Virus record (IMG/VR): IMGVR_UViG_3300022752_000013 | DNA: 64,000 nt | From: a virus | Taxonomy: Duplodnaviria; Caudoviricetes | Strand: one strand, 5' to 3' | Part shown: in pieces, positions 3,115-58,409 of the stretch | Position numbering within the stretch: position 1 is the stretch's first letter | Layout: each line of letters opens with the position of its first letter | Translations under genes and position numbers: made by a program | Notes under the pieces: model-generated | Database searches by the model: none | What the model was told of the DNA's origin: nothing | The model's input: only the letters and a program-made list of their open reading frames with translations

Positions 3115-4893
3115 ATGGCTGGATGGAAAAAATATTTTAAAGTTGCTGATCTCTCAGGTCAGATGAGCCCTATTTCGGGCGGCAGAGATTCAGGCTTGCC
3201 TGGATATCCTAAAAATGACGGTCGCGGAACTAATTTGGCTCAAACTGATTTTGCATTCCGTAACTATGCATCACGCTTGCCAGAAGTGTATAGTGGGCAT
3301 CCCAACAGAATTGAACGCTACAATCAGTATGAGAACATGGATGCTGACTCCGAAGTCAACGCCTGCTTAGACATTATTGCTGAGTTCTCAACTCAACTCA
3401 ACGAAGACAACAACACACCATTTGAAATCAAATACTCTGATGAGCCCACTGATCACGAAATTGAAATCATCCGCAAGCAAATGCAACAGTGGACCAAACT
3501 CAACAAACTAGATCAACGAATCTTTAAACTGTTCCGCAACACCATCAAGTACGGAGATCAAGTGTTTGTGCGTGATCCAGAAACATTTGAAATGTACTGG
3601 GTGGACATGAGCAAGGTCAGCCGAGTGATTGTGAACGAATCAGAAGGCAAGCGTCCTGAGCAGTACATCATTCGTGACATCAATCCCAACTTTCAGAATT
3701 TGACTGTGGCAGCCAAAACCACAACAGACTTCATGGTCAACCCACCCACAGGTGGTGGCTACAGTCAAGGCGGTGGCTATACTCAGCCAAACACAGCCAT
3801 GACAGGAACCAGTAGATTTAGCCGTGCTGTGAATGAAACTTGTATTGATGCCAAGCACGTGGTTCACATGAGTCTGAACGAAGGCCTGGACACATTCTGG
3901 CCATTTGGTAAATCAATCTTGGAAAACATTTTCAAAGTGTTCAAGCAGAAAGAACTGTTAGAAGATGCGTTGTTGATCTATCGTGTGCAACGTGCTCCCG
4001 AGCGCAGAGTGTTCAAAATTGACGTGGGCAACATGCCAAGTCATTTGGCCATGCAGTTTGTGGAACGTGTGAAGAACGAAATGCATCAGCGTAGAATCCC
4101 CACATTTGGTGGTGGCGGCGGCAACATCATGGATTCAAGTTACAATCCACTCAGTATCAACGAAGACTTCTTCTTTCCTACAGGTGCAGACGGACGTGGC
4201 TCCAGTGTAGATGTACTACCCGGTGGTCAAAACCTAGGCGAAATTGACGATTTAAAGTACTTTAACAACAAGATGGCCCGTGGTTTGCGTGTGCCTTCGA
4301 GTTATTTGCCTACCGCTCCTGACGACTCAGAGCGCACAATGCAAGATGGCAAAGTGGGTACAGCATTGATTCAAGAGTACAGATTCAACCAGTATTGCGA
4401 GCGTTTGCAAGCACTGATCATGCAGAAACTGGATGATGAATTCAAGATGTTCCTGCGCTGGAGAGGCTTTAACATCGACGCTGGCCTGTTTCAACTGAGG
4501 TTTAATCCACCGCAAAATTTTGCAAGTTATCGCCAGGCAGAGATGGATACATCACGTATCAGCAGTTTCACTAGTCTAGAGGCGTTGCCTTACATGTCAA
4601 AACGCTTTATGCTGGAACGTTTCTTGGGACTCAGCAAGGACGAAATTGAACAAAACGAAAAAATGTGGCGCGAAGAACGTGACCGACCTGAACTGCAAAC
4701 CACACAAGGACAGGATCTACGTTCTATCGGTATCACTCCAGCAGGTATGGAAACTGATATTGCCACCGGTGAAGAAATGGCCAATCTACAAGCACCTGGT
4801 GCAGAAGGTGGCCTACCAGCAGTACCTGCAGGCACAGTAGGCGGCACTGCTCCTGGTGCAGGAGCACCGGCAGCATCGCCAGCAGGATTATAA
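3115..4893 (+). CDS. gp20: Portal protein
   Basis: T4 gp20 motifs LEDALLIYRVQRAPERRVFKIDVGNMP, EDFFFP, LPGGQNLGEIDDLKYF; TAAATA at 3102-3107. Confidence 0.97.
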   Translation: MAGWKKYFKVADLSGQMSPISGGRDSGLPGYPKNDGRGTNLAQTDFAFRNYASRLPEVYSGHPNRIERYNQYENMDADSEVNACLDIIAEFSTQLNEDNNTPFEIKYSDEPTDHEIEIIRKQMQQWTKLNKLDQRIFKLFRNTIKYGDQVFVRDPETFEMYWVDMSKVSRVIVNESEGKRPEQYIIRDINPNFQNLTVAAKTTTDFMVNPPTGGGYSQGGGYTQPNTAMTGTSRFSRAVNETCIDAKHVVHMSLNEGLDTFWPFGKSILENIFKVFKQKELLEDALLIYRVQRAPERRVFKIDVGNMPSHLAMQFVERVKNEMHQRRIPTFGGGGGNIMDSSYNPLSINEDFFFPTGADGRGSSVDVLPGGQNLGEIDDLKYFNNKMARGLRVPSSYLPTAPDDSERTMQDGKVGTALIQEYRFNQYCERLQALIMQKLDDEFKMFLRWRGFNIDAGLFQLRFNPPQNFASYRQAEMDTSRISSFTSLEALPYMSKRFMLERFLGLSKDEIEQNEKMWREERDRPELQTTQGQDLRSIGITPAGMETDIATGEEMANLQAPGAEGGLPAVPAGTVGGTAPGAGAPAASPAGL

Positions 4894-5241: not shown

Positions 5242-6135
5242 ATGAGCAAAAACCGTTTCGAACAACTGATCGAATACGTCATCAATGACGAAGAAGCCAA
5301 AGCAAAAGAACTTTTTCACCAAATTGTGGTGGAAAAAAGTCGTGCTATCTATGAAGACCTCATGGATGAAGACAATGCCATGGGTGAAGAACCCACAGAG
5401 ATTGACACCAATGTAAGCGAAGAAACTGACGCCGAGCGTGATGATCACGCTGAACGTGCAGGTCGTAAAGTTGCTAAAGATATTGAATACGACGAGAAAC
5501 ACGGTCGTTACAATGAAGACCTTGGTGGAAGCCAAGCCCAAGACATGATTGACGATGTTGAAGCAGAAGAGCAAGGCATGGCAGAAGACGACATGGATGC
5601 TGAGTTTGATGACAAGGCCGAAGAAGCCGGCAAAGACATGACACAGGACATGGAAGACGAACACGACGACGGCGAACTTGAGAACCGTGTGGTTGATTTG
5701 GAAGACAAATTAGACGAACTCATGGCAGAATTTGAAGCCATGATGGACGGTGGCAACGGTGCTGACATGGGCGATACACCTGACATGACAGACATTGAAG
5801 TTCAGGACGATGAGTTGGAAACTGAAGGCATGATGCCAATGGAAGAAGCCATCAGTCTCAAGCAAGTACACCCAAAAACAACTACGCAAGAAGCACCAGG
5901 TACAGACACAAAGTCAATTGTTGCTGCCAATTCTGGCGCACGTGGCGCAATGGCACAACCAGTCAAAATGACTGGAGACACGGCACAAGGTCGTCCTGCT
6001 CCAACTACTAAAGACTTGATTGGCCGAGTGGGCAACTCACCTGCTCAAGGCGTACAAAGTCCCAAGGCAGCACCAAAGCCAGTGACATCACAAGCCGCAG
6101 GCGTAAACACACGTACACCTTTTCCAAAGGCTTAA
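5242..6135 (+). CDS. Acidic prohead core protein (gp67-like N-terminus, long acidic extension)
   Basis: Position between gp20 and gp21; N-terminal helix FEQLIEYVINDEEAKAKELF; very D/E-rich middle; basic Pro-rich tail; AGGAG SD. Confidence 0.65.
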   Translation: MSKNRFEQLIEYVINDEEAKAKELFHQIVVEKSRAIYEDLMDEDNAMGEEPTEIDTNVSEETDAERDDHAERAGRKVAKDIEYDEKHGRYNEDLGGSQAQDMIDDVEAEEQGMAEDDMDAEFDDKAEEAGKDMTQDMEDEHDDGELENRVVDLEDKLDELMAEFEAMMDGGNGADMGDTPDMTDIEVQDDELETEGMMPMEEAISLKQVHPKTTTQEAPGTDTKSIVAANSGARGAMAQPVKMTGDTAQGRPAPTTKDLIGRVGNSPAQGVQSPKAAPKPVTSQAAGVNTRTPFPKA

Positions 6136-6141
6136 CCGGTC

Positions 6142-6789
6142 ATGAGATACTTACAAGAGCATTTGAACTTTAATCAGGCCAAGATTCGCGTCTTGTTCGA
6201 GGATGCTCCTGACGGCAAAGGCCCTTTCAACGGCAAAAACTTGTACATGGAGGGTATATGTATCGAAGGCGGAGTAAAGAACGCCAACGAACGTGTGTAC
6301 CCCGTGAATGAAATTGCCAAGGCTGTGGACACCATCAACAAACAAGTTGTGGAAGGCTACAGCGTGATGGGCGAAGTCGATCACCCAGAAGATCTCAAAA
6401 TCAACTTGGATCGTGTTAGTCATACCATTGACAAAATGTGGATGGATGGGCATTGCGGTTACGGTAAGTTGAGAATTATTCCAACGCCAATGGGACAACT
6501 GGTCAAGACCATGTTGGATTCTGGCGTCAAACTCGGAGTTTCGAGCCGTGGTTCCGGTAACGTGAACGACGGCAACGGACATGTCAGTGACTTTGAAATT
6601 GTCACTGTCGATGTTGTTGCTCAACCCAGCGCCCCACATGCTTATCCCAAAGCCATCTACGAAGGACTTCTCAACATGAAGTACGGACATAGAGTTTTGG
6701 AAGCGGCAAGAGACGCAGGCAAGGACAACAAGGTACAGAGATATTTGCAGGCCGAGGTAACTCGACTGATCAAAGATCTCAAAATATAA
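6142..6789 (+). CDS. gp21: Prohead protease
   Basis: NANERVYP, GEVDHP, GVSSRGSG, VDVVAQPSAP motifs of T4 gp21. Confidence 0.96.
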   Translation: MRYLQEHLNFNQAKIRVLFEDAPDGKGPFNGKNLYMEGICIEGGVKNANERVYPVNEIAKAVDTINKQVVEGYSVMGEVDHPEDLKINLDRVSHTIDKMWMDGHCGYGKLRIIPTPMGQLVKTMLDSGVKLGVSSRGSGNVNDGNGHVSDFEIVTVDVVAQPSAPHAYPKAIYEGLLNMKYGHRVLEAARDAGKDNKVQRYLQAEVTRLIKDLKI

Positions 6790-6799
6790 GGAGTAAAGC

Positions 6800-7900
6800 A
6801 TGCTAGATGCTATTAAACCATTGCTTGATAGTGAACTGATCAACGAGGAAACTCGCAGTGCTATCAGTGAGGCTTGGGATGCCAAACTTACTGAAGCACG
6901 TGAACAGGTTCGCGCAGAACTCCGCGAGGAATTTGCGCAACGCTATGAACACGACAAGTCAGTGATGGTGGAAGCCTTAGACAAAATGGTAACAGAAGGT
7001 CTTGCCGCAGAAGTTCAAGCCGTGGCTGCTGAAAAGCAGGCATTGGCAGAAGACCGCGTTAAGTTCCAAGTCAAGATCAAAGAAGATGCAACTAAGTTCA
7101 ACAACTTCATGGTCACAAAATTGGCAGAGGAAATTAGCGAATTGCGTCGAGATCGTAAAATGCACACAGAGGGACTGGGTAAACTAGAAAACTTTGTGGT
7201 ACATGCATTGGCCCGTGAAATTCAAGAATTTGCAACAGACAAGCGTGACGTGGTGGAAACCAAGGTTCGTTTAGTCCGTGAAGCACGTGGCCAACTGGAA
7301 GGTCTCAAAACACGTTTCGTTAAGGAAAGTGCCGAGAAGATGAGCCAGGCTGTTAGCCGTCACCTAAAGGCTGAACTCACACAATTACATGAAGACATCC
7401 AAGTTGCTCGCGAGAACAATTTTGGTCGTCGTATTTTTGAAGCATACGCAGCCGAATTTGGTGCTACTCATCTCAATGAGAAAGCCGAAGTTCGTAAACT
7501 GCACAACATGATTGCCAACAAAGATCATCAATTGAGTGAAGCCATCAAACTCACACAGAGAGCAAAAACTCTGGTTGAGTCCAAAGAACGTGAAATACGT
7601 ATTATCAAAGAATCCAATGTGCGTCAAAACACTCTGGACGATTTGCTCGCACCTCTCAACGAAGAGAAGCGTGAGACCATGCGTAATTTACTCGAAAGCG
7701 TACAAACAGCCCGTCTGAATGCCGCATTTGAAAAGTATCTACCAGCCGTATTGGCCGAAGGCAAATCAACAAGTAGCCGCAAAGTGATTGTTGAAAATGT
7801 GTCGGAAGTAACTGGTGATAAAACTGCCCGTAGCCAAGTAGAAGATAACGCTGATGACAACAGCAACGTTATTGCTATCAAGCGCCTGGCAGGCCTCTAA
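6800..7900 (+). CDS. gp22: Prohead core scaffold protein
   Basis: Coiled-coil, E/K-rich, between protease and major capsid; AGGAG SD. Confidence 0.85.
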   Translation: MLDAIKPLLDSELINEETRSAISEAWDAKLTEAREQVRAELREEFAQRYEHDKSVMVEALDKMVTEGLAAEVQAVAAEKQALAEDRVKFQVKIKEDATKFNNFMVTKLAEEISELRRDRKMHTEGLGKLENFVVHALAREIQEFATDKRDVVETKVRLVREARGQLEGLKTRFVKESAEKMSQAVSRHLKAELTQLHEDIQVARENNFGRRIFEAYAAEFGATHLNEKAEVRKLHNMIANKDHQLSEAIKLTQRAKTLVESKEREIRIIKESNVRQNTLDDLLAPLNEEKRETMRNLLESVQTARLNAAFEKYLPAVLAEGKSTSSRKVIVENVSEVTGDKTARSQVEDNADDNSNVIAIKRLAGL

Positions 7901-7921: not shown

Positions 7922-9133
7922 ATGTCAGAACAATTATTAGAAAGCCGCTGGGGCGAAACCAAAGAAGCATTGCTTGAAGGGTTGAACGGTTCCAAGCGCA
8001 ACAGCATGAGTGTTATCCTCGAAAACACTCGCAAGTACTTGAAGGAAAACGCAAGTGCAGGCTCAACAGGCTCTGGTAACATTGCCACATTGAACCGTGT
8101 GATTTTGCCAGTTATCCGTCGTGTAATGCCAACAGTTATCGCTAACGAGTTGGTAGGCGTTCAGCCAATGACAGGCCCAGTTGGTCAGATCCACACTTTG
8201 CGTGTGCGTTATGCCAACACAATGACTGACAACTCAGCAGCCGCCACAAGCACTGCCGCTGGTCAAGAAGCATTGAGCCCATTCTTGATCGCTCAAGCAT
8301 ATTCTTCAGCATCTAGCGTAACTGCTGGTACTGTTGACCCAACTCAGAACATCTACACTGGTGCTAATACATCTGTGTTAGAAGGTTCTGGTGGTCGTCA
8401 AATTTCCGTGCAAATCTTGAAGCAGGCTGTTGAAGCCAAGACTCGCAAGTTGCAAGCACGTTGGACTTTTGAAGCCGCTCAAGACGCACAAGCAATGCAT
8501 GGTATCGACGTAGAAGCCGAAATCATGGCTGCTTTGGCTCAAGAGATTACTGCTGAAATTGACCAAGAGATTCTTTTGAGTCTCCGTAGTTTGGCCGCAA
8601 CTGAGTACACATACAACCAAGCAACCGTTTCAGGTACTGCTACATTTGTTGGTGACGAACACGCCGCTTTGGCTGTTTTGATCAACCGTGTTGCTAACTT
8701 GATTGCCCAACGTACACGTCGTGGCGCAGGTAACTATGCTGTTGTGAGTTCTGCAAGTTTGACAGTGTTGCAATCTGCAACTACTTCTGCTTTTGCACGT
8801 ACTACAGAAGGTACTTTCGAAGCACCTACAAATACCAAGTTTGTTGGTACATTGAACGGCGCAATGCGTGTGTTTGTTGACTCTTATGCAAGTGACACAA
8901 CTCCTGTGTTGGTTGGCTACAAGGGTTCAAGCGAAGCAGACGCTCCAGCATTCTACTGCCCATACATCCCATTGATGTCAAGCGGTGTTGTGTTGGATCC
9001 AACAACCTTTGAACCAGTCGTGTCATTCATGACACGTTATGGCTTCATTGAATTGACCAACACTGCCAGTTCATTCGGCAATGCTGGCGATTATGTTGGC
9101 GAGATAGCCGTGAGCAATTTATCGTTTAGTTAA
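7922..9133 (+). CDS. gp23: Major capsid protein
   Basis: ELVGVQPMTGPVGQIHTLR, VEAKTRKLQARWTFEAAQD, EITAEIDQEI, FYCPYIPL, MTRYG motifs. Confidence 0.98.
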   Translation: MSEQLLESRWGETKEALLEGLNGSKRNSMSVILENTRKYLKENASAGSTGSGNIATLNRVILPVIRRVMPTVIANELVGVQPMTGPVGQIHTLRVRYANTMTDNSAAATSTAAGQEALSPFLIAQAYSSASSVTAGTVDPTQNIYTGANTSVLEGSGGRQISVQILKQAVEAKTRKLQARWTFEAAQDAQAMHGIDVEAEIMAALAQEITAEIDQEILLSLRSLAATEYTYNQATVSGTATFVGDEHAALAVLINRVANLIAQRTRRGAGNYAVVSSASLTVLQSATTSAFARTTEGTFEAPTNTKFVGTLNGAMRVFVDSYASDTTPVLVGYKGSSEADAPAFYCPYIPLMSSGVVLDPTTFEPVVSFMTRYGFIELTNTASSFGNAGDYVGEIAVSNLSFS

Positions 9134-9184: not shown

Positions 9185-9232
9185 ATTGACTCTGTTATGT
9201 TGGTGAAATCGCACTCTATCATAAATAAAAAT

Positions 9233-9847
9233 ATGAAGCCATACACCTATCTAATTAAACATCGTCCTACTGGTAAAGTTTATTACGGATTTAGATCAGC
9301 CAACAAGTTAGATCCTCACAAAGACCTTTGGAAACATTATTTTACAAGTAGCCCTCGGGTACAACAACTAATAAAAGAAACCGGAGCAGATAGTTTTGAT
9401 GTAGAAATACGCAGAGTGTTTGAATCTAAAGAGCAAGCAAGTGCTTGGGAAACTCGTGTTTTAAATCGTTGTAAAGTATTACACGATGACCGTTGGTTAA
9501 ATCAAAACATAGCAGGATATATTGTTCCTACAGAAGAAAGTAAGAAAAAGATTAGTAATTTTCATAAAGATAAACCTAAGACTGATCAACACAAACAAAA
9601 TCTTAGCAAATCACAAAAAGGTAAACCTAAATTAAATTCTAAAAATCAAACTCCTGAATACCGTGCATTAATGTCTAAACTTAAATCAGGAGAAAATAAT
9701 CCAATGTTTGGAAAAGGATGCACTCCTGAAAGGGCCGCAAGAATAGGAGCCGCTAACAAAGGAAAAGTTCCGATCAATAAAGGCAAGCCAATGAGCGAAG
9801 AACAAAAAGCAAAGATTAGAGCAACTATTGCCGCCAAGAAAAAATAA
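9233..9847 (+). mobile_element. Free-standing GIY-YIG (Seg-like) homing endonuclease with NUMOD3-type repeats
   Basis: N-terminal YTYLIK..TGKVYYG; C-terminal K-rich repeats (HKQNLSKSQKGK, NNPMFGK, NKGKPMSEEQKAKI); visibly AT-rich; TAAATA at 9222-9227 supports start 9233. Confidence 0.85.
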
Positions 9848-33801: not shown

Positions 33802-34479
33802 ATGGCATTAACACTAGACGGCACAACAGGTATTTCGGCTTCGGGCAACATTACAGGCGGTAATGTTATTGCCAGTGGCTCTTTGATTGTGGGTTCTTTT
33901 CTACCAACATCTGTTTCTGCTACAGGCAACATCACAGGCGCTAATTTAATTATCAACGGCACAGCCGCCGCTGGTAGTGGTGTACTAATTGTGTCTGGCA
34001 ACATTCAGACCAGTACCTCAAACGCCACATCCAATATTGGCAATGCCAGCAACTATTTCAACAGACTGTTTGCTCAAGCAACCACAGCACTGTATGCTGA
34101 CTTGGCCGAGATTTATAAGGCCGATGCTCAATATCCCCCAGGTACTGTGGTAGTGTTTGGTGGCACACAAGAAGTTACTATGAGCACTGTGACTCATGAC
34201 AACAAGATTGCTGGGGTAGTATCTACACATCCTGCTCATGTGATGAATTCAGGACTGCAATCTGAATTCACAGTGGAAGTGGGTCTAATAGGCCGTGTGC
34301 CATGCCGTGTGATTGGCCCAATTGAGGCAGGTGATCGTGTGGTGTCCAGCAACCGTGCTGGTGTGGCCGAACGCTTGGATATGTCACAATATCAACCAGG
34401 CGTGATCATTGGCAAAGCATTACAAAGTTACTCCAGCACCGATGTTGGTACAATTGAAGTTGTGGTTGGCAGACTATAA
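33802..34479 (+). CDS. Short fibre protein with Peptidase G2-like chaperone domain
   Basis: NIGNASNYFNRLFAQATTALYADLAE nearly identical to the C-terminus of 22848..27887. Confidence 0.72.
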   Translation: MALTLDGTTGISASGNITGGNVIASGSLIVGSFLPTSVSATGNITGANLIINGTAAAGSGVLIVSGNIQTSTSNATSNIGNASNYFNRLFAQATTALYADLAEIYKADAQYPPGTVVVFGGTQEVTMSTVTHDNKIAGVVSTHPAHVMNSGLQSEFTVEVGLIGRVPCRVIGPIEAGDRVVSSNRAGVAERLDMSQYQPGVIIGKALQSYSSTDVGTIEVVVGRL

Positions 34480-48027: not shown

Positions 48028-48636
48028 ATGAAGACATTTCATCAATATCTCGCAGAATCTGAGCGCACATACGACTACAGGATCAAAATACTGGGCGACG
48101 TGCCGCAGGAATTCATCAAAAATCTCGAAGAAAAAATGGCGCAGTTTGACATTGTCAAACTTAGTCGCCCTAAAACTACACCTGTGCAAAAGTTGCAAAA
48201 AGACTTTCCAGGCGCAGAAAATCAAAGCGTGACTTTCATGGACGTGAGTTTTAGATACCCTGCTATCGAGCCACAGATCAAACAGTTGGCACAGTTGTTG
48301 GGTCTCAATCCCAACTCGATAACTTTGCAAACACAGGCCTATGATGACAGTATCACAAAAGAGATTGCAGACATCACAGCACAGAACACGGACCTGATCG
48401 CTGACACAGATTATCCTGCACCCGATGCAGAACAGCGAGCCCTGAGCCAAGACTACTCGGCCAACCCATATCAACATGCAGTATTGCGGAACGAATATCG
48501 TTCAGACTTTACTGTGGCTGGCGGCAAAACACCTCCTGCAAAAACCACAAATGATATTCCCACACAGAACAAGAGCCCGTTCAACAATATCAAGCGTCAA
48601 CCCCGCCCAGCAACTGGTGCCAACCCAAGAGGATAA
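48028..48636 (+). CDS. Putative internal head protein with capsid-targeting-like N-terminus
   Basis: Begins MKTFHQYLAE (T4 IP targeting sequence is MKTYQEFIAE); TAAATA 48005-48010. Confidence 0.55.
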   Translation: MKTFHQYLAESERTYDYRIKILGDVPQEFIKNLEEKMAQFDIVKLSRPKTTPVQKLQKDFPGAENQSVTFMDVSFRYPAIEPQIKQLAQLLGLNPNSITLQTQAYDDSITKEIADITAQNTDLIADTDYPAPDAEQRALSQDYSANPYQHAVLRNEYRSDFTVAGGKTPPAKTTNDIPTQNKSPFNNIKRQPRPATGANPRG

Positions 48637-48640
48637 TATA

Positions 48641-50830
48641 ATGAATAATTTTTTCTACGACTTAAACAAACGCATGGCCGACCTAGGCCAACAACAAACT
48701 CTTACAGAAGGTGCAGTTGCTGAAGCCAGTTACTCAGCCAAGGCTGCCAGAGCCGGCAAAGACATTGGCAAGCCAGGCAAGAACTTTTCAAAGATTGCTG
48801 CCGATGCAGGCCAGCGTTATGGTTCCAAGGCCGCCGGTGAGCGTGTGGCAGGTGCTGTGCTAAACAAACTGCGTAATCCCAAAGAAAGCATGGAAGAAGG
48901 TCAACTCAATGAACTAAGTCCTGAACTGCTAAAGAGAGCAAGAGATGCGGCGGGTATGAAATATGCTGATGCTGACGATCGCCGAGATCAAAAAGCATCT
49001 GACAAATACAATAGACTAGATGACAAGTTCAATAGTGCCTTGCGTAAAAAACAAAAAGGCATGGCAGAAGCCGAACTTGATGAAGTCAGTCGTGGTGAGT
49101 ATATTAAACAACAAGATACTGCCGCAGAAAAGTCTGGCAAACAAAAATTCAATGCTTTTGGTCAGACATTTGATACAGATGAAATTGATGAAGGTGGCCT
49201 GCCAATGACCACAGTCAACGGAAAACGAGTTCCAAAATTTGCGGCTGATGGTCAAGGTGCTAATGACCTTGCCAAGAAAAAATCATTCAATGACAAGATT
49301 GCCGGCGCCAAACAAGAAGTTGAAGAAATGTTGGGCGACGTAGCAGCCGAAGCCATGCGTAGTGCATTAGGTGGCAAGAAGCAAGTGGCCGATGAAGGCT
49401 TTGATGACATGGAACGTGATGTCAAGCGTCGACTGAGCACTCCCAAAGTTGGTGATGTCAAGCGTGGCGCACGTCACGACATTGAGACTACAGCCACTGG
49501 CGTCCGTGCCACACGTCGTCACGATGACGAAGAAGATACTCAACCCACAGGCGAAAAGCGCCGGGCCGGACGTCCAAAAGGCGCTGACAAAGGTCCAGAG
49601 CGTGTGACAGGCAAAGCCTACAAACACAAAGGTGGTCGCAAAACCAACGAAAATGATCTTGACATTACAGATCGTGGCGAGTATGATCAAGAAGGTGACA
49701 TGGCCAAAGACAGCATCAAGACTGTGGTGCGTCATGCACAGGCCTTGGAAAAGATCCTGGGCGACAATGACAACCTGCCAGAATGGGTACAATCCAAGTT
49801 GGCCAAGATCGAAAGCATGATAACTGCTGTGGACGACTACATGCAGAATCAAGAGGACGATGATCAGCCACTTGATGAAAAAGCAGTCAGCAAAAATCAA
49901 GCCGTTGCGGCTCGTATTGCTCGTGGCGTTCAGAAAGGTGAAGCAAAAGCCAAGCCAGGTTCTGCCAGTGCTGAAATGGCCAAGATGGAACCCAAAGAAC
50001 TCAAGAAATTTGCAAAGACTGACACCAAGGGATTGCCAAAGAAAAAGAAAGAAGTTGAAGAAACAACTACCTCTGGATCAGTTGCCACAGGTAGTGACGC
50101 TCCCAAAGCCAGCAAAGGTGGCATGCAAGTTGGCAAGGGCATTTACGACAGTTTGAATCGCAAGGTCGAAGGCATGATTGCTGAGTCAATGAGTATAAAC
50201 GTGAGTATGACCAAAGATGACAACGGTTCACACAAGAATATCACTGTCACAGCATCCGACGAGGATGCTGAGGCTCTGGCACAGTTGTTGCGCAGTGCAG
50301 GTTTAGGCGGTGATATGTCCAATGGTCATGCTGAGCCTTGCCCTGCCTGCGGATCAACTGATTGTGGTTGCGATCAAGGCATGGCAGAAGCATATGGTGA
50401 TACTGATGCTTCACAAAATGAACCCAATTGGCCCACCGACACTGAATACAGTGACGACGCCATGCAATACTCCGGAGGCTTGAACGGCCCCAAGAGCACT
50501 GGACAAACCACTGTGCCTGTTATTGCTCACCAAGGCGAACGCACTGGTGTAGATGACGAAGAACTGCGCCGCATGATGGAAATGGCCGGCATACAACAGA
50601 ATCTCAAGCCATGGGAACGTACCATGAAGGAAGCGGCTGTTGAAGAAGGCGTTGTTGACAAAGTCAAAGACGTTGTGAAAAAAGGCCTTGAGAAACTGGG
50701 GCACGGTTCCGACGAAGACATGCGCAAAGACTTGCAAAAGAAAATGGGTGTGCCACCAACAGGCGAAAAACCAGCGGACAAGAAGATGGAAGAAAGCCTG
50801 ATGCAAGAGTTTGCCAACTTCCGGATCTGA
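48641..50830 (+). CDS. Modular polyprotein-like putative internal head protein (729 aa)
   Basis: ATG 48641 after GAGGA; basic modules separated by LTE/VAE/MEE/MAE/LDE/IDE/VEE sites; AT-hook-like RRAGRPKG; DUF3008-like module. Confidence 0.6.
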   Translation: MNNFFYDLNKRMADLGQQQTLTEGAVAEASYSAKAARAGKDIGKPGKNFSKIAADAGQRYGSKAAGERVAGAVLNKLRNPKESMEEGQLNELSPELLKRARDAAGMKYADADDRRDQKASDKYNRLDDKFNSALRKKQKGMAEAELDEVSRGEYIKQQDTAAEKSGKQKFNAFGQTFDTDEIDEGGLPMTTVNGKRVPKFAADGQGANDLAKKKSFNDKIAGAKQEVEEMLGDVAAEAMRSALGGKKQVADEGFDDMERDVKRRLSTPKVGDVKRGARHDIETTATGVRATRRHDDEEDTQPTGEKRRAGRPKGADKGPERVTGKAYKHKGGRKTNENDLDITDRGEYDQEGDMAKDSIKTVVRHAQALEKILGDNDNLPEWVQSKLAKIESMITAVDDYMQNQEDDDQPLDEKAVSKNQAVAARIARGVQKGEAKAKPGSASAEMAKMEPKELKKFAKTDTKGLPKKKKEVEETTTSGSVATGSDAPKASKGGMQVGKGIYDSLNRKVEGMIAESMSINVSMTKDDNGSHKNITVTASDEDAEALAQLLRSAGLGGDMSNGHAEPCPACGSTDCGCDQGMAEAYGDTDASQNEPNWPTDTEYSDDAMQYSGGLNGPKSTGQTTVPVIAHQGERTGVDDEELRRMMEMAGIQQNLKPWERTMKEAAVEEGVVDKVKDVVKKGLEKLGHGSDEDMRKDLQKKMGVPPTGEKPADKKMEESLMQEFANFRI

Positions 50831-50831
50831 T

Positions 50832-51704
50832 ATGAAAACACTACGTGATTATTTGGCAGAAGCAGAAACAGAACAACATCACCCACGAACCGGTGATGTG
50901 TTTGCCTTTGAACTGGAAGATGGCACCTTGCTTGAAACCTATGTAATGGATCAAGACGATCGTGGTGATATCTTGTTGGATTCCACAGATCAAATCTATT
51001 CATTGCTGGAAGAGTGGGGCCTGTTGGGCGCAAGTGATGCTGTGATGGAATCATTGACCCTTAAAGAGTTTGCACCCAGCAATGGTGGCGACAGTGGCAA
51101 CTATCTCAAAGCCTTGGCTTCGGCCTGGTACAATCATGACATTGAAATGTTGCAAGACATTGTGAAACAAGGCGGCAGCCCAATGAGTCGGATCATTGAT
51201 GCACAAGTGGCAGTGGAAAAAATCCTGGGTCGCGGCATTGTGTGCGGTGATGGTAAAGTGCGCAAATATCACATTGATTATAATAGTGACTTTGATGGTG
51301 TGGAAATCTACAGCGATGACTACTACGAACACGGTGATCATGATGCCACATTAGACAGTCGTACAGGTCAACCCTGGGGACCATACGAGCACGTGGAGTT
51401 CAAGGATGATGATCTAGACGAAAGTATCGACGAAGCCAAGTATCAAGGTCGCGAAGTTCCACTGGGCAAGAAAATGAAGGGCGACGTCAAAAAATTCAAG
51501 GTTTATGTGCGTAATCCCAAAACTGGCAACATCAAAAAAGTCAACTTTGGTCACGGAGGCACCAGTGCCAAACGTGCCGGACAAAAGACCATGAGTATCA
51601 AACGATCCAACCCTGCACGGCGCAAGAGTTTTAGAGCAAGACACAACTGTGACAATCCTGGACCAAGAACAGGGGCCAGATACTGGTCGTGCAGAAACTG
51701 GTAA
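50832..51704 (+). CDS. Putative internal head protein: acidic N-terminal modules plus basic C-terminal module
   Basis: Begins MKTLRDYLAE; after SIDE comes a K/R-rich module ending RRKSFRARHNC...ARYWSCRNW. Confidence 0.6.
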   Translation: MKTLRDYLAEAETEQHHPRTGDVFAFELEDGTLLETYVMDQDDRGDILLDSTDQIYSLLEEWGLLGASDAVMESLTLKEFAPSNGGDSGNYLKALASAWYNHDIEMLQDIVKQGGSPMSRIIDAQVAVEKILGRGIVCGDGKVRKYHIDYNSDFDGVEIYSDDYYEHGDHDATLDSRTGQPWGPYEHVEFKDDDLDESIDEAKYQGREVPLGKKMKGDVKKFKVYVRNPKTGNIKKVNFGHGGTSAKRAGQKTMSIKRSNPARRKSFRARHNCDNPGPRTGARYWSCRNW

Positions 51705-53931: not shown

Positions 53932-55503
53932 ATGACCAAAACACTAGAAGGCGTACTGGTCAAAGCACCATACCGACGCCAATCTTTTTCTGATGAACAA
54001 CTGCAGGAATTTCTTGCATGTGCAGATCCACAAGACGGGCCGCACTACTTCATGGACAACTTCTTTCACATACAGCATCCTACACAGGGCAAGATGCTGT
54101 ATCATCCGTTCTCTTATCAAAAGCGACTGATCGAAACTTATCACAACAACCGTTATAGCATAAGCATGATGCCGCGACAGACCGGCAAGTCTACCTCGGC
54201 CGCTGGTTACATTCTTTGGTATGCCATGTTCATTCCAGATAGTACAATTCTTATTGCGGCACACAAGTACACAGGTGCCCAGGAGATCATGCAACGTATT
54301 CGCTTTGCTTATGAATTGTGTCCAGATCATATCCGAGCAGGTGCCACCAGTTACAACAAAGGCTCCATAGACTTTGAAAACGGATCAAGAATTGTGTCAG
54401 CCACCACAACCGAAACAACTGGTCGTGGTATGAGTATTACCTTGCTATACGCTGACGAGTTTGCGTTTGTGCGACCCACTATTGCTACAGAGTTTTGGAC
54501 CTCCATATCACCTACCTTGGCCACAGGTGGTAAGGCTATTATCACAAGTACTCCCAACTCGGACGAAGATCAATTTGCGCTGATCTGGAAAGGTGCCAAC
54601 AAGTGTATAGACGAGTTTGGCAATCCAACTGAACTGGGCATGAATGGATTCCGCGCATTTAGAAGTTACTGGCAAGAGCACCCGGACCGTGATGAAAAGT
54701 GGGGCGAGAACATGCGGGCACAACTGGGCGACGATCGTTTCCGCAGAGAGATCGGTTGTGAGTTCATTATCAATGATGAAACACTTATTGCTCCAGCCAA
54801 GTTGTTGGACTTAGAAAGTCGTGATCCTTGGAAACGCACAGGACATGTGCGTTGGTACGAAGCCATCAAGCCCGACTCAATCTATGTAGTGGCACTAGAC
54901 CCCAGTCTGGGCACCGGAGGCGACCCTGCGGCCATACAAATCTTTGAAGCCAATACCACACGTCAAGTGGGCGAGTGGACACACAATCGCACACCTATTC
55001 CAGAACAGATACGCATCCTGTCAGACATCTGCCGGCACATCAATGAAACTGTGCAAAATGACAAGAACATCTACTACAGTATTGAAAACAACACCATTGG
55101 TGAAGCAGGCCTGATCTCTATTGCAGAGTTTGGCGAAGAAAACATACAGGGTTACTTTTTGTCAGACCCGCACATGAGCAACAGCAACAGACGTATGCGC
55201 AAGGGCTTTAATACCACACACAAGAACAAACTGTCAGCCTGTGCCAAAGTTAAAAATCTAATAGAAACCAACAGAATGACTGTGTACAGTTCAGCACTGA
55301 TAAGTGAACTCAAAACCTTTGTGGCTTCGGGCTTGAGTTTTGCCGCTAAAATAGGCGAAACAGATGACTTGGTCATGAGCATGTTGTTAGCGGTGCGCAT
55401 GATGCAGGTTTTGCAGAGTTTTTACACAGAACTAGACAGCCAAATGAAGGATCATTCAGACAACGTGATCGAACCCTTCCCGTTTATATCAACTATGTAT
55501 TGA
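53932..55503 (+). CDS. gp17: Terminase large subunit
   Basis: MMPRQTGKS Walker A, LLYADEFAF Walker B, ITSTPN, VALDPSLG nuclease motif, DDLVMS. Confidence 0.97.
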   Translation: MTKTLEGVLVKAPYRRQSFSDEQLQEFLACADPQDGPHYFMDNFFHIQHPTQGKMLYHPFSYQKRLIETYHNNRYSISMMPRQTGKSTSAAGYILWYAMFIPDSTILIAAHKYTGAQEIMQRIRFAYELCPDHIRAGATSYNKGSIDFENGSRIVSATTTETTGRGMSITLLYADEFAFVRPTIATEFWTSISPTLATGGKAIITSTPNSDEDQFALIWKGANKCIDEFGNPTELGMNGFRAFRSYWQEHPDRDEKWGENMRAQLGDDRFRREIGCEFIINDETLIAPAKLLDLESRDPWKRTGHVRWYEAIKPDSIYVVALDPSLGTGGDPAAIQIFEANTTRQVGEWTHNRTPIPEQIRILSDICRHINETVQNDKNIYYSIENNTIGEAGLISIAEFGEENIQGYFLSDPHMSNSNRRMRKGFNTTHKNKLSACAKVKNLIETNRMTVYSSALISELKTFVASGLSFAAKIGETDDLVMSMLLAVRMMQVLQSFYTELDSQMKDHSDNVIEPFPFISTMY

Positions 55504-55516
55504 TAAATATAACACT

Positions 55517-57490
55517 ATGGCAGCAAACTCACCCGGACAACAACTAAACGATTTATTGGTCACTAGAAATTTTGACCCTGAAGCACTAGATGCACGAACT
55601 GGCAAGCCGCCCCTGGACGACCAGGGTGCTCCTGATCCTGAAAATGCGGACATGTTTACATTTGACTGGGTAGCAGACTCCGGCAAGAACTACGGCACAG
55701 TGGTTTGCTTGCTGGGCGCTGACAACAACTTTGAAGTTTATTTTGGCGACAATCTTGGCCGCGGTATGGAGTTTGACGACAAGGCTGACTGGTACGAATT
55801 CCTGGACCAGTTGCGTAACTTTGCCAAACGCAATCTCTTGCGTTACGACCTGCAGAACCTACGTAGACTCAAGTATACTATGGCCGGAATGGCTGCCATC
55901 AAAGAAGGCCTGTTTGAAGGCTACTATGGCAACAAAAAGGTGAGTTATGCTGGTGAGCCCACACAGGCACGACTCATGATCAAACACAATCGCACCCTGG
56001 GTGAAAACGATGCACGTTTCCGCTATGTGGAAAGCCTGTTCATTGAAACAGTGGCAGGCGAAGTGTTCAAAATGCCGTTCAAGAAACTGGCCGGCGGACG
56101 AGCCATGCTGGAACATGTGCGTCACGGTGGCACACCTTATGATGCTCGTGGACAACACATTGTAGAAATTGTTGAACAGATCAATGTGCTGAGTCAGTTC
56201 CGTAGAGCACATCAAGGTCGAGTATTTGAAGGTGCTGCCGGCGAACTGGTAGCAGAAACAACAGAATACTTGAATCGACTGCGTCACAATCTCAAGGCAG
56301 TGAGCAACGATCGCGGTTACACCCAATACTTTGAATCATGGAGCCCGGCTGATGTGTCGGAATCAGATCTCATAGTGGAAGATTTAAAAAGCCTCTTTGT
56401 GGAAACACGTATCGATCCACGCATAGAGCAAGCGTTGCCCATGTTGGCACGAATACAAAAGGAAGCACTAGCCATGAAAGAAGCAGAAATATTTGAATCC
56501 TGGGCCAATCGTATTGTAGAAGGTACCTGGACATTACCGGAAACTCCTGAGCAACAAGATGAACTCAAGATGTTGATGAGTCGACCCTTGACAGTGGGCG
56601 CGGATGGCATGAATGCCACAGAACAACTGTATGGCTTGATTGGTGACGATGAGTTGTTTGACATCATTGGCAACATTGCTGAAGAAAATCCAGATGCTAA
56701 TTGCTGGGATGATCCGCGTGTACAGGACCGACTGGAAGAACTAGGCGTGTACATGGTCACACCAGCAGAACCTGCTCAGGCAGCCGAAACACCTCCCGTG
56801 GCTGAAGGCAGACCAGAAGACTTACCAGGTATTGATTACGACCGTCCTGGTGATGTAAAACGTAAACAACCCGGCGGTGATGATGATCAAAATCCTTATC
56901 CCTACAGTCCAGAAGAAGATGATGACTACTTCCGTGAAATCTTCCGCAAGAAGCGTGAAGCCGCCAAACAGCAAGGCATGGCGGAAGGCAATATGGATGG
57001 TAAAGCAGCCGACATCAAAGGACAGATAGCAGAACTGGAAGCCGAGCAAGAAGAATATGAATTTGGCTCTTATGCCTATGACACGGTCGATGGCGAACTG
57101 CAATATCTTTACGCAAAACTTGATAAAGCGGAAAAGGGTGTGGCGGAAGGGTTGGGTTATAGTCAAGACCCGGCTCAAGCAAAATGGTATCATGAAGGTC
57201 GCAAGGCATTCAAAGGTGGTACTACTGGTAATCTAATACAAGACATCGCCAAGAAACACGGAGTTCCATCTGAGTGGATTGATGCATTCCATGCCGGATA
57301 TAAAGATCAAGAAGGCTTTGGCAAAGATCCTGTAGACGAAGGTGACAACATGAGCACATTCGAACAAGCCCAGTGCAACCAGACCATGGAAGGCGAATAC
57401 TGCCCAGAACACGGCATGTCCGAGTGCGGCAACTACGGCATGTATGAATCACAATTGGCAAGAATCAAAAGCCTAGCACTACTGCGCTAA
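55517..57490 (+). CDS. Large putative head protein with cassette-like C-terminus
   Basis: TAAATA 55504-55509; C-terminal modules bounded by PVAEG, QGMAEG, KGVAEG, PVDEG; Cys/His-rich terminal motif. Confidence 0.6.
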   Translation: MAANSPGQQLNDLLVTRNFDPEALDARTGKPPLDDQGAPDPENADMFTFDWVADSGKNYGTVVCLLGADNNFEVYFGDNLGRGMEFDDKADWYEFLDQLRNFAKRNLLRYDLQNLRRLKYTMAGMAAIKEGLFEGYYGNKKVSYAGEPTQARLMIKHNRTLGENDARFRYVESLFIETVAGEVFKMPFKKLAGGRAMLEHVRHGGTPYDARGQHIVEIVEQINVLSQFRRAHQGRVFEGAAGELVAETTEYLNRLRHNLKAVSNDRGYTQYFESWSPADVSESDLIVEDLKSLFVETRIDPRIEQALPMLARIQKEALAMKEAEIFESWANRIVEGTWTLPETPEQQDELKMLMSRPLTVGADGMNATEQLYGLIGDDELFDIIGNIAEENPDANCWDDPRVQDRLEELGVYMVTPAEPAQAAETPPVAEGRPEDLPGIDYDRPGDVKRKQPGGDDDQNPYPYSPEEDDDYFREIFRKKREAAKQQGMAEGNMDGKAADIKGQIAELEAEQEEYEFGSYAYDTVDGELQYLYAKLDKAEKGVAEGLGYSQDPAQAKWYHEGRKAFKGGTTGNLIQDIAKKHGVPSEWIDAFHAGYKDQEGFGKDPVDEGDNMSTFEQAQCNQTMEGEYCPEHGMSECGNYGMYESQLARIKSLALLR

Positions 57491-57500
57491 TAAGTACAGG

Positions 57501-58409
57501 ATGAATTTTGATTGCTATGCAATAACCACCTGGCCTGGTTATTGCTTTCAGACTGCCCTGTGCATTCGATCCATCCTTGAACATTTTCCACTGCGTCCCA
57601 TACACATCATTGTGGACACCGAGCATCACACAGGGTATCCGATCGCTACACCCTGGCCTGACTTTGAATCGGATCTCAAACAATACATTGCTGATCAACA
57701 CTTCAAAGCCGACATAGTATGGCACACAGTGGGTCAAGTACCTGCAATCAATCAATGTCCTGTGGGTTGGTGGCGTCAACAGTTAGTTAAACTGTGTTTG
57801 GATCAATACTTGCCCGGCAACTCTTGGTTGATCATAGACGCTGATATCATATTTGATCAGCCACTGACATTTGATCAAGTGCCGGTCAAAATAGATTGGT
57901 ACCGTGCTTTAGAAACTGATTCTATAACCCTGGGCAACAGACTATATGTCAAACACCTGCTTGGTACAGATGTCGACAGCATTACCTGCAATAATCTTCC
58001 AGCCTGTGCCAGTGCTGTACCGTTTAGACAACTTGATTGTAAGTTATTGACAGGCATACGAGCCCATGTGGAACAAATCCATCAACAAGACTTTGTTGAG
58101 ATGCATATAAAAATGTTTGAATCACAACAGATAGTAGGGTATGATCCCAAATGTCAGAGCATGGTCATGAGTGAATTTGAACTGATAGAAGTTTATAGGC
58201 ATATGACCCATCCTCTACCATTTCAAGCAGTACACTGGGATCACACCTTTGCTCTTGAATGCACTGGAGACTATCGTTTTAGACATAGCAGTCTGTCAGA
58301 CTGGGCCATTGGTCGTGAATGGTTACAAGCACAACGTCTCCAAATTTCAGATGCTCTATGGCAAAAGAGCAAACAGTTCCAGGAAAATATGCCACATTTG
58401 CGCAAATGA
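57501..58409 (+). CDS. Putative GT-A glycosyltransferase (DUF6492-like)
   Basis: GWWRQQLVKL followed by WLIIDADIIF (DxD motif). Confidence 0.55.
   Translation: MNFDCYAITTWPGYCFQTALCIRSILEHFPLRPIHIIVDTEHHTGYPIATPWPDFESDLKQYIADQHFKADIVWHTVGQVPAINQCPVGWWRQQLVKLCLDQYLPGNSWLIIDADIIFDQPLTFDQVPVKIDWYRALETDSITLGNRLYVKHLLGTDVDSITCNNLPACASAVPFRQLDCKLLTGIRAHVEQIHQQDFVEMHIKMFESQQIVGYDPKCQSMVMSEFELIEVYRHMTHPLPFQAVHWDHTFALECTGDYRFRHSSLSDWAIGREWLQAQRLQISDALWQKSKQFQENMPHLRK

What the first reader, a model, noticed from the sequence alone, without database searches (positions are those of the whole stretch)
55517..57490. Recurrent (Q/K)G(M/V)AE linker delimits cassettes in three genes and may be conserved as DNA
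Seen: CAAGGCATGGCAGAAG at 5572 (prohead core) and 50375; AAAGGCATGGCAGAAG at 49055; CAAGGCATGGCGGAAGG at 56972; AAGGGTGTGGCGGAAGG at 57134; plus PVAEG (56795) and PVDEG (57329). In the 657-aa ORF these bound three self-contained 54-65 aa units that look unrelated to each other. The last two linkers share TGGCGGAAGG, including GCG for Ala, which by eye is an uncommon codon here. Inference: the linker is both a protease site and a short recombination anchor for in-frame insertion or exchange of peptide cassettes, i.e. a cassette-shuffling cargo system with no obvious integrase. This is my best candidate for an undescribed system in the window.
Basis: partly seen in the sequence, partly recalled or inferred. 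Interest (0 to 1): 0.85.

Follow-up and report, generated by a model that had tools for sequence, protein, structure and literature searches.

The report
Protease-site linkers joining swappable phage-head cassettes
A giant T4-like lake phage has a head protein whose tail is a string of small unrelated modules joined by a short linker that looks like a cut site of the phage's head protease, and related phages gain, lose and exchange single modules exactly at that linker, which suggests a modular way of loading varied small proteins into the capsid.

Summary
In detail: all seven motif coordinates are exact. GGNRTGGCNGAR occurs 6 times against 0.45 expected.

The window is part of a roughly 330-kb freshwater T4-like phage with a gp21-family (Peptidase_S77) prohead protease. 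The 657-aa ORF after the large terminase has a conserved 426-aa core. After it come three cassettes of 60, 54 and 64 aa, a Cys/His block and a conserved C-terminal peptide, all separated by hydrophobic-x-Glu sites.

- 187 distinct homologues show 121 tail architectures.
- Homology blocks end at the motif: 77% lie within 5 residues, against 22% by chance.
- Cassette B is 94-96% identical as DNA in six contexts, including two other gene frameworks. Its dS is 0.13, while the adjacent core is saturated at 2.7.
- The G(M/V)AE linkers carry a codon signature: GCG in 11 of 29 and GCR in 26 of 29, against a genome GCG share of 5-6%. Synonymous sites still vary, by transitions, and cassette order is mostly collinear.

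My reading is a protease-punctuated cargo polyprotein whose linker also marks the recombination breakpoints. Cleavage and packaging have not been measured, and no dedicated recombination machinery is shown.

This scan reported the same kind of linker polyprotein in other giant lake phages. I found no published description.

The parts
55517..57490 (+). 657-aa ORF directly after the large terminase: conserved core followed by a cassette array
   Evidence: ORF listing. Residues 130-274 hit phrog_13484 'virion structural protein'. Distant homologues in PA5oct-like jumbo phages are annotated as virion structural proteins. The homologue search returned 3165 proteins at E <= 0.001.
55517..56794 (+). 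Conserved N-terminal core (aa 1-426)
   Evidence: Alignment A1 has 66% mean column identity over 18 diverse homologues. The AF2 model has mean pLDDT 68. It has no PDB match; the only matches are uncharacterised phage proteins in BFVD.
56795..56806 (+). PVAE site at the border between core and tail
   Evidence: Present in most homologues. Its codons follow background usage.
56807..56986 (+). Cassette A (aa 431-490, acidic), ending in the linker QQGMAE
   Evidence: Family 2, found in 88 tails. Some close relatives carry an alternative cassette here, 32-36% identical although their cores are 89-92% identical. Conversely, A is 92% identical in a lineage whose core is 59% identical. dS is 0.52, against a saturated core.
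56972..56988 (+). Linker 1: CAA GGC ATG GCG GAA GG (QGMAE|G)
56987..57148 (+). Cassette B (aa 491-544, pI 4.2, probably helical), ending in KGVAE
   Evidence: 94-96% DNA identity in six contexts, including two other gene frameworks. dS is 0.13, against 2.7 for the core. The high-identity block is bounded by the linkers.
57134..57150 (+). Linker 2: AAG GGT GTG GCG GAA GG (KGVAE|G). It shares TGGCGGAAGG with linker 1.
57149..57340 (+). Cassette C (aa 545-608), a predicted three-helix module ending in PVDE
   Evidence: Found at 77-89% identity in at least 4 other gene frameworks, always followed by a hydrophobic-x-Glu site. dN/dS is 0.06. The AF2 model has three helices at pLDDT 65, and no fold match is significant.
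57341..57424 (+). Conserved Cys/His block (GDNMSTFEQAQCNQTMEGEYCPEHGMSE)
   Evidence: C, C, P, H, G and E columns are at least 90% conserved in 73 diverse tails. The GLAE/GMSE site inside the block shows ordinary synonymous variation.
57425..57487 (+). CGNYGMYE followed by the conserved C-terminal peptide SQLARIKSLALLR. In relatives a second variable slot lies between the two.
   Evidence: All complete homologues end in ..LARIKSLALLK-like peptides. In relatives, glycine-zipper cassettes are inserted before this peptide.
6142..6789 (+). gp21-family prohead protease, the presumed enzyme that cuts the linkers
   Evidence: Pfam Peptidase_S77 at 7e-25, 88 bits against a cut-off of 27. phrog_207 head maturation protease at 3e-56.
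5572..5587 (+). QGMAE site in the acidic prohead-core-like protein (ORF 5242-6135)
   Evidence: Vertically conserved as EEQGM(A/S)E in relatives and not a cassette border.
48641..50830 (+). 729-aa mosaic head-internal-type protein, with GMAE linkers at 49055 and 50375
   Evidence: Homologues are strongly mosaic, with modules present, absent or moved. Some modules are shared with tails of the 657-aa family.
48028..48636 (+). Protein with an N-terminus like the T4 capsid targeting sequence (MKTFHQYLAE|S)
   Evidence: The T4 CTS is MKTYQEFIAE (PMC8442874).
50832..51704 (+). Protein with a CTS-like N-terminus (MKTLRDYLAE|A)
   Evidence: In locus L152 its C-terminal module stands directly after cassette B.

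Best explanation
The 657-aa ORF encodes a head protein of a T4-like giant phage. Its C-terminal third is a polyprotein: small, mutually unrelated modules (cassettes A, B and C, then a Cys/His block and a C-terminal peptide) joined by hydrophobic-x-Glu sites. The commonest site is (Q/K)G(M/V)AE followed by G.

Inferred mechanism: the protein enters the prohead. The phage's gp21-family (S77) protease then cuts after each Glu, as T4 gp21 does with its core and internal proteins. The modules are freed as separate small proteins or peptides, which stay with the DNA or leave the capsid.

Shown by comparison: related phages carry different sets of modules. Gain, loss, replacement and transfer between lineages and between genes happen at the linkers.

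Inferred: the linker serves two roles. It keeps every recombinant in frame and cleavable. Its short conserved DNA (about SAA CAA GGY RTG GCR GAA GGY) gives the general phage recombination machinery a patch of microhomology. No dedicated recombinase is needed.
For: - T4-type head module with an S77 protease, Gp23-type capsid protein and T4-type portal in the window. Neighbouring genes begin with near-copies of the T4 capsid targeting sequence.
- T4-family proteases cut after Glu in short motifs of this kind (PMC5694885, PMC9026906).
- Motif enrichment: 6 matches against 0.45 expected.
- 121 tail architectures among 187 distinct homologues.
- Right ends of homology blocks lie within 5 residues of [GPAS][MVLIF]xE in 77% of cases, against 22% for random positions.
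- Cassette identity is discordant with core identity: B 91-94% against 57%, F 89% against 58%, A 92% against 59%. dS: B 0.13 against core 2.7, F 0.18 against 2.15.
- DNA identity switches exactly at the linkers for B, F and A.
- B and C occur in other gene frameworks, some directly behind CTS-like leaders, and are always flanked by the motif.
- Purifying selection on cassette C, dN/dS 0.06.
- Codon signature specific to the G[MVI]AE linkers: GCG 11 of 29 and GCR 26 of 29. PVAE and GLAE sites follow background usage, and there is no general GCG-GAA codon-pair bias.
- The window's A-B-C arrangement is present in an independent lake metagenome run.
Against: - No proteomic or biochemical evidence exists that this uncultured phage's protease cuts these sites, or that the protein is inside the capsid.
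- The ORF itself lacks an N-terminal CTS.
- Some hydrophobic-x-Glu sites lie inside the conserved Cys/His block and inside the core, so not every site can be a functional cut site.
- Linker DNA is short (8-18 nt) and polymorphic. Selection alone could produce breakpoints at linkers.
- Cassette order is almost always collinear.
- Cassette functions are unknown: no Pfam family apart from glycine zippers.
Confidence: 0.7

Rival explanations
1. Selection only. The linkers are protease sites and nothing more. Recombination is illegitimate and occurs anywhere, but only in-frame products that keep a cut site on both sides of each module survive, so breakpoints appear to sit at linkers. The DNA word plays no mechanistic part.
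For: Synonymous sites in the linker vary. The shared stretch is only 8-18 nt. The downstream site of cassette C differs in every context (DPVDE, DDVNE, DSVAE, EDMTE ...), so a uniform DNA word is not required for a cassette to be mobile.
Against: Independent G[MVI]AE linkers use the rare GCG in 38% of cases and never GCT, and they differ almost only by transitions. Other sites with the same peptide logic (PVAE, GLAE) follow genomic usage. This points to the linker DNA being copied or carried along, not re-invented each time. The two recent transfers (B and F) both have canonical linkers at both ends.
Confidence: 0.3
2. The modules are disposable filler. The tail is scaffold-like propeptide material that is cut up and expelled from the capsid, as with T4 gp22/gp67/gp68 fragments. 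Its variation is nearly neutral and has no cargo function.
For: Cassettes A and B are acidic (pI 4.2-4.6), like T4 core proteins. The scaffold-like protein in the window is full of the same type of site. No cassette has a recognisable enzymatic domain.
Against: Cassette C has dN/dS 0.06 at near-saturated dS, across unrelated host proteins. B is kept at 91-96% identity after transfer into different genes. Several cassettes are predicted folded or membrane-type (glycine-zipper) modules.
Confidence: 0.12
3. The motif is not cut. It is a flexible inter-domain linker of a multidomain structural or decoration protein with variable exposed domains.
For: Cleavage is unmeasured. The ORF lacks an N-terminal CTS. 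The core has no known fold.
Against: The motif matches the P3-P1 logic of the S77 protease encoded in the same module. The same cassettes stand directly after CTS-like leaders in other phages. The same linker occurs in the acidic prohead-core protein and in the mosaic internal-type protein.
Confidence: 0.06
4. Assembly artefact. The apparent cassette combinations are chimeras made by metagenome assemblers switching between strains at repeated sequences.
For: All data are metagenomic. Unitigs of lake runs branch near cassette ends.
Against: The linker (12-18 nt) is shorter than assembly k-mers. Identical architectures recur in independent assemblies from JGI, ENA and Logan: several architectures are each seen in 6-8 distinct proteins. 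L150 and L151 carry the same foreign context of B in two different metagenomes. The window's A-B-C junctions are bridged by contigs in three further runs.
Confidence: 0.02

Closest known systems
T4 internal proteins (IPI, IPII, IPIII, Alt) and core proteins gp67/gp68 processed by the prohead protease gp21
   Same: Same protease family (S77) and the same cut logic: after Glu, with a hydrophobic residue two positions before. The substrates are head-internal. Neighbouring genes in the window start with near-copies of the T4 capsid targeting sequence MKTYQEFIAE. T-even internal proteins are known to be highly diverse, with only the targeting sequence conserved (PMC3012670, PMC9026906, PMC8442874).
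   Different: In T4 each internal protein is a separate gene with its own N-terminal leader and is cut once. Here many unrelated modules are strung in one reading frame behind a large conserved core, separated by repeated internal sites, and single modules are exchanged. Cleavage here is inferred, not measured.
Polyvalent proteins of phages and conjugative elements (Iyer, Burroughs, Anand, de Souza, Aravind 2017, PMC5512222)
   Same: Long mosaic proteins of 2-15 unrelated domains, encoded next to virion genes, predicted to be packaged and injected, and evolving rapidly by domain shuffling. One BFVD structural relative of the core is named 'Large polyvalent protein-associated domain-containing protein'.
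   Different: That paper describes enzymatic effector domains and, where processing is discussed, autoproteolysis by a zincin-like domain. The word 'linker' does not occur in its main text. Here the modules are 50-120 aa with no known domain, and they are punctuated by a standard prohead-protease-type site.
PeSL-mediated modular shuffling in T4-type phages (Arbiol et al. 2010, PMC2839356; PMC4122927)
   Same: Short conserved sequences flanking modules act as linkers for recombination by the general T4-type machinery, giving targeted gain, loss and replacement of modules without disrupting the neighbours.
   Different: PeSLs are intergenic regulatory cassettes of about 100 bp (promoter plus stem-loop) that move whole genes. 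Here the repeat is a coding word of 12-18 nt inside a reading frame, and it moves protein modules in frame. Mini-circles have not been looked for.
Polymorphic toxin architecture (CdiA with the VENN motif, Rhs with PxxxxDPxGL, MuF-toxin fusions); recalled from memory, apart from MuF fusions, which are mentioned in PMC5512222
   Same: A conserved N-terminal part is joined to exchangeable C-terminal modules at a short conserved motif. In Rhs that motif is also a cleavage site.
   Different: The modules here have no toxin domains (Pfam); I did not check the downstream gene as a possible immunity gene. Several modules sit in series rather than one tip, and cutting would be done by a separate capsid protease.
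Multiply cleaved head and ejection proteins of phiKZ, 201phi2-1 and SPN3US
   Same: Giant phages with gp21-related proteases that cut many head proteins after Glu in short motifs. Their propeptides hold several sites (PMC5694885, PMC9026906).
   Different: Their motif is (A/S/G)-x-E, and what is reported is removal of propeptides. Arrays of exchangeable modules are not reported.

Membership tests
Substrates of a T4-type (gp21, Peptidase_S77) prohead protease | A gp21-family protease is encoded by the same phage | tested here: met
   ORF 6142-6789: Pfam Peptidase_S77 at 88 bits (cut-off 27), phrog_207 at 3e-56.
Substrates of a T4-type (gp21, Peptidase_S77) prohead protease | Cut-site logic: Glu at P1 with a hydrophobic residue at P3 | tested here: met
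   All cassette borders in the ORF read V-A-E, M-A-E, V-A-E, V-D-E or M-S-E. The capsid protein has LKE|N just before the start of the Gp23 domain.
Substrates of a T4-type (gp21, Peptidase_S77) prohead protease | Cleavage observed in virions or in vitro | not testable with these tools
   The phage is uncultured and no proteome is available.
T4 internal proteins (CTS-dependent capsid cargo) | N-terminal capsid targeting sequence of about 10 residues ending in a cut site | tested here: not met
   The 657-aa ORF starts MAANSPGQQL and has no early cut site. Neighbouring ORFs 48028 and 50832 do carry MKTFHQYLAE and MKTLRDYLAE. Cassettes B and C stand behind CTS-like leaders in L146 and L150.
T4 internal proteins (CTS-dependent capsid cargo) | Physical presence inside the capsid | not testable with these tools
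   The only support is indirect: distant homologues of the core in PA5oct-like phages are annotated as virion structural proteins.
Polyvalent proteins (Iyer et al. 2017) | Two or more unrelated domains in one phage protein encoded among virion genes, with mosaic architectures across relatives | tested here: met
Polyvalent proteins (Iyer et al. 2017) | Presence of the family's characteristic effector or LPD domains | tested here: not met
   A Pfam scan of 73 diverse tails found only glycine-zipper hits and a few weak hits. One structural relative in BFVD carries an LPD name.
PeSL-type modular shuffling | Repeated conserved DNA flanking the mobile module, with breakpoints inside it | tested here: inconclusive
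   Breakpoints of B, F and A fall in or next to the linker, and the linker has a non-random codon signature. The repeat is only 8-18 nt, and selection could give the same picture.
PeSL-type modular shuffling | The repeat is an intergenic promoter plus stem-loop of about 100 bp | tested here: not met
   The repeat is coding and lies inside one reading frame.
Polymorphic toxins (CdiA-CT, Rhs, MuF fusions) | Exchangeable toxin domain with a cognate immunity gene downstream | tested here: not met
   No toxin domain was found in any tail. The downstream ORF 57501-58409 is a DUF6492 protein. I did not test it as an immunity gene.

The most novel reading that the evidence does not exclude
The linker word (about CAA GGY RTG GCR GAA GGY) is a true recombination site. 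Under this reading it is recognised by a phage-encoded function, or it forms excised circles as PeSLs do. Giant lake phages would then own an integron-like, promoterless, in-frame cassette array that lets them acquire and reassort capsid-delivered effector proteins across genes and lineages.
Probability: 0.12. Interest if true: 0.9.

Novelty: new variant of a known kind. Interest (0 to 1): 0.7.

Why it matters
T-even phages are known to carry diverse injected internal proteins, some of which defeat host restriction. Phage polyvalent proteins are known to be mosaic.

What this locus adds is a simple grammar. One short linker is at once the likely cut site and the place where modules are exchanged. 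With it, a single gene can load a changeable set of small proteins into the capsid.

The family is large (over 3,000 homologues returned by the database search) and common in lakes. Its cassette repertoire looks open-ended: 183 segment families in 187 proteins, most with no known domain. If the modules are injected effectors, they are a large untapped pool of candidate anti-defence or host-takeover proteins.

The linker would also be a ready-made design rule for packing foreign proteins into T4-like capsids.

Tried and rejected
- **Whole genome:** none is held for this window.
- **Cassette domains:** Pfam on ten single cassettes and on 73 tails gave nothing usable apart from glycine zippers. 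A weak hit of cassette C to the Sp-DndD family (18 residues, below cut-off) was disregarded.
- **Core fold:** the AF2 model (pLDDT 68) has no PDB match. BFVD matches are only uncharacterised phage proteins.
- **Cassette C fold:** three helices at pLDDT 65. No PDB or AFDB match is significant, and the resemblance to helix-turn-helix domains is too weak to use. The ESM Atlas feature search gave no usable hit.
- **Population variation:** laying Logan contigs of four lake runs gave no joints. Only contigs were available, so within-population cassette-number variation could not be measured.
- **General codon-pair bias as the cause of GCG in the linker:** rejected. Ala before Glu is GCG in only 6% of cases window-wide. 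The GTG/GTA preference for Val is partly a general Val-Ala codon-pair effect, so I do not use it as evidence.
- **Free reordering of cassettes:** rejected. 4 of 461 family pairs occur in both orders.
- **QGMAE in the prohead-core gene as a cassette border:** rejected.
- **GVAE at 34360** (ORF 33802-34479, which is not a head-internal type protein): treated as a chance match.
- **Recent transfer as the explanation for cassette C's high identity across contexts:** rejected. Its dS is about 1, so the identity reflects strong purifying selection.
- **Literature:** searches for the linker peptides and for a description of such arrays found nothing relevant.
Full report
**What is in the window**

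The window belongs to an uncultured freshwater phage of roughly 330 kb; the longest contig carrying the identical protein is 330,017 bp. Its distant relatives are PA5oct-like, Atu_ph07-like and Rak2-like jumbo phages.

It carries a T4-type head module:
- portal, 3115-4893 (Pfam Portal_T4);
- an acidic core-like protein, 5242-6135;
- a gp21-family protease, 6142-6789 (Peptidase_S77, 88 bits);
- a scaffold-like protein, 6800-7900;
- a Gp23-type capsid protein, 7922-9133.

The large terminase is at 53932-55503. The ORF in question, 55517-57490, follows it directly. Its residues 130-274 match a PHROG of virion structural proteins.

The degenerate DNA pattern occurs 6 times against 0.45 expected, always in frame in + strand genes.

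The ORF divides as follows:

| Part | Residues | Ends in |
|---|---|---|
| Core | 1-426 | |
| Site | 427-430 | PVAE |
| Cassette A | 431-490 | QQGMAE |
| Cassette B | 491-544 | KGVAE |
| Cassette C | 545-608 | PVDE |
| Cys/His block | 609-636 | GMSE |
| CGNYGMYE | 637-644 | |
| SQLARIKSLALLR | 645-657 | |

GCG is a rare Ala codon in this phage, about 6%.

**Why the motif is a likely protease site**

T4 gp21 and its relatives in giant phages cut after Glu in very short motifs (PMC5694885, PMC9026906).

Every border in the ORF has Glu at P1 and Val or Met at P3. The capsid protein has LKE|N just before the region where the Pfam Gp23 domain begins. The scaffold-like protein is full of such sites.

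Two neighbouring ORFs begin MKTFHQYLAE and MKTLRDYLAE. These are near-copies of the T4 capsid targeting sequence MKTYQEFIAE (PMC8442874).

Cleavage itself is inferred. Nothing here measures it.

**Cassette content is variable, and its borders are the motif**

The large protein database returned 3165 homologues, and 80 viral contigs gave DNA. All share the core. Nearly all complete ones end in a LARIKSLALLK-like peptide.

Between those two parts, 187 distinct proteins show 121 architectures. About 44 of these occur among proteins whose core is at least 89% identical to the window's. Examples are A-Z, A-B-Z, A-C-Z, A-B-C-Z (the window), A-B-C-D-Z, A-E-Z and A-F-Z.

There are three variable slots:
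- before cassette A;
- between A and the Cys/His block;
- before the C-terminal peptide, often filled by glycine-zipper modules.

I ran a test that does not depend on my segmentation. In all-against-all BLASTP of the tails, 77% of the right ends of high-identity blocks lie within 5 residues of a [GPAS][MVLIF]xE site. Random positions give 22%. Left ends are shifted a few residues upstream, because the preceding linker is shared.

**Cassettes move between lineages and between genes**

Cassette identity is discordant with core identity:

| Cassette | Cassette aa identity | Core aa identity | Cassette dS | Core dS |
|---|---|---|---|---|
| B | 91-94% | 57% | 0.13 | 2.7 |
| F | 89% | 58% | 0.18 | 2.15 |
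| A | 92% | 59% | 0.52 | saturated |

These are transfers that happened after the lineages split.

At nucleotide level, the identity of window against L081 jumps from about 65% to 94% exactly between the two linkers. F and A behave the same way.

Cassette B occurs at 94-96% DNA identity in six contexts. Two of them are other gene frameworks: a protein starting MRAYEILTE|, seen in two different metagenomes, and an internal-type protein whose C-terminus is homologous to window ORF 50832-51704. In each context it reads RTG GCG GAA | B | GGT GTR GCR GAA.

Cassette C occurs at 77-89% identity in at least four other frameworks, one of them directly after a leader MKILEIITE|. Its dS is about 1 and its dN/dS is 0.06. 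It is therefore an old, strongly constrained module rather than a recent transfer.

The 729-aa protein at 48641-50830 belongs to a family that is just as mosaic, and it shares modules with the tails of the 657-aa family.

**Is the linker conserved as DNA?**

Partly. Synonymous sites vary: GGT/GGC, ATG/GTG, GTG/GTA, GCA/GCG.

I took one linker per unrelated left context, which gave 29 independent G[MVI]AE linkers. Among these the Ala codon is GCG in 11, GCA in 15, GCC in 3 and GCT in none. Background usage is 5% GCG and 29% GCT (p about 7e-8 for GCG and 2e-7 for GCR).

PVAE sites (27 clusters) and the vertically inherited GLAE site follow background usage. There is no general preference for GCG before GAA.

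The consensus is SAA CAA GGY RTG GCR GAA GGY, with no conservation beyond it. The variants differ almost only by transitions.

The simplest reading is that linkers are related by descent. They are carried along or recombined within, rather than evolved anew for each cassette. The 5' linker of B keeps GCG in five of six contexts while the codons just upstream differ. This places at least some crossovers inside the 12-nt word.

This is still inference. Selection for in-frame, cleavable products could sharpen the same picture, and the microhomology is short.

**Limits on the 'shuffling' idea**

- Only 4 of 461 co-occurring cassette-family pairs appear in both orders. Within this gene the process is mostly collinear gain, loss and replacement.
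- In the prohead-core protein the QGMAE site is vertically conserved and is not a border. That gene does, however, carry a 30-aa inserted module shared with the 729-aa family.
- The match at 34360 is probably chance.

**Artefact check**

Identical architectures recur in independent assemblies. The window's A-B-C-Z arrangement is covered without differences by contigs of a lake run not flagged as the source. The A|B and B|C junctions are bridged in two further runs.

**Comparison with what is known**

The parts are known:
- T4 internal proteins with their targeting sequence and gp21 processing, and their diversity among T-even phages (PMC3012670, PMC9026906);
- mosaic, capsid-delivered polyvalent proteins (PMC5512222);
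- recombination at short conserved linkers in T4-type hyperplastic regions, the PeSLs (PMC2839356).

The combination seen here is many unrelated small modules in one frame, punctuated by a standard protease-type linker that also marks the exchange points. I did not find it described.

Earlier follow-ups in this scan reported the same kind of linker polyprotein (mostly QGVAEG) in other giant lake phages. My independent tests on this window agree with them. They are AI notes, not independent evidence.

**Verdict**

This is a real and non-trivial feature, best described as a new variant of known kinds. The modular architecture and the exchange at linkers are shown by comparison. Cleavage, packaging, module function and a mechanistic role for the DNA word remain inferred.

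Noticed in passing
window 48028-48636 and 50832-51704: Two ORFs begin MKTFHQYLAE|S and MKTLRDYLAE|A. These are near-copies of the T4 capsid targeting sequence MKTYQEFIAE, so they are likely T4-style internal proteins. The second is listed by the ORF finder from an upstream TTG at 50811; the ATG at 50832 is the likelier start.
   Followed up: partly
window 48476-50830: The 784-aa ORF overlaps the preceding gene. It most likely starts at the ATG at 48641 (MNNFFYDLNK), as all homologues do. Its family is strongly mosaic, with modules that change position between relatives (for example the LGHGSDEDM module).
   Followed up: partly
window 57341-57448: A conserved C-x9-C-P-x-H-x4-C pattern (QCNQTMEGEYCPEHGMSEC) is present in nearly all homologues and may bind zinc. 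Two hydrophobic-x-Glu sites lie inside it, so either they are protected from cutting or the block is cut apart.
   Followed up: no
window 57449-57487: The C-terminal peptide ..LARIKSLALL(K/R) is kept in essentially every homologue, even when long glycine-zipper modules are inserted just before it. It could be a targeting or docking peptide.
   Followed up: no
window 5470-5570 (within ORF 5242-6135): The prohead-core-like protein of the window and of L153 carries a roughly 30-aa insertion (..AERDDHAERAGRKVAKDIEYDEKHGRY..). Closer relatives lack it, and the same module is repeated in relatives of the 729-aa protein.
   Followed up: partly
window 9197-9847: A homing-endonuclease-like ORF (phrog_314) sits directly after the major capsid protein gene.
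   Followed up: no
window 34360-34371 (ORF 33802-34479): This is the sixth match to the DNA pattern (GVAE). It lies in a protein whose C-terminus matches PHROGs of unknown function and which is not of the head-internal type, so the match is probably chance.
   Followed up: no
protein P0056: An NCBI record that is 100% identical to the C-terminal 461 residues is labelled 'MAG: Micrococcales bacterium'. It is either a phage contig binned with a bacterial MAG or a hint at an actinobacterial host.
   Followed up: no
window 57501-58409: The ORF downstream of the cassette gene matches DUF6492 (E 6e-6) over a short stretch. I did not examine its relation, if any, to the head protein.
   Followed up: no
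runs X8, X9 on window 56916-56959: Contig depth rises about tenfold over the 3' part of cassette A (EEDDDYFREIFRKK), and unitigs branch right after it. Many co-occurring genotypes in one lake sample therefore share this piece but continue differently.
   Followed up: partly
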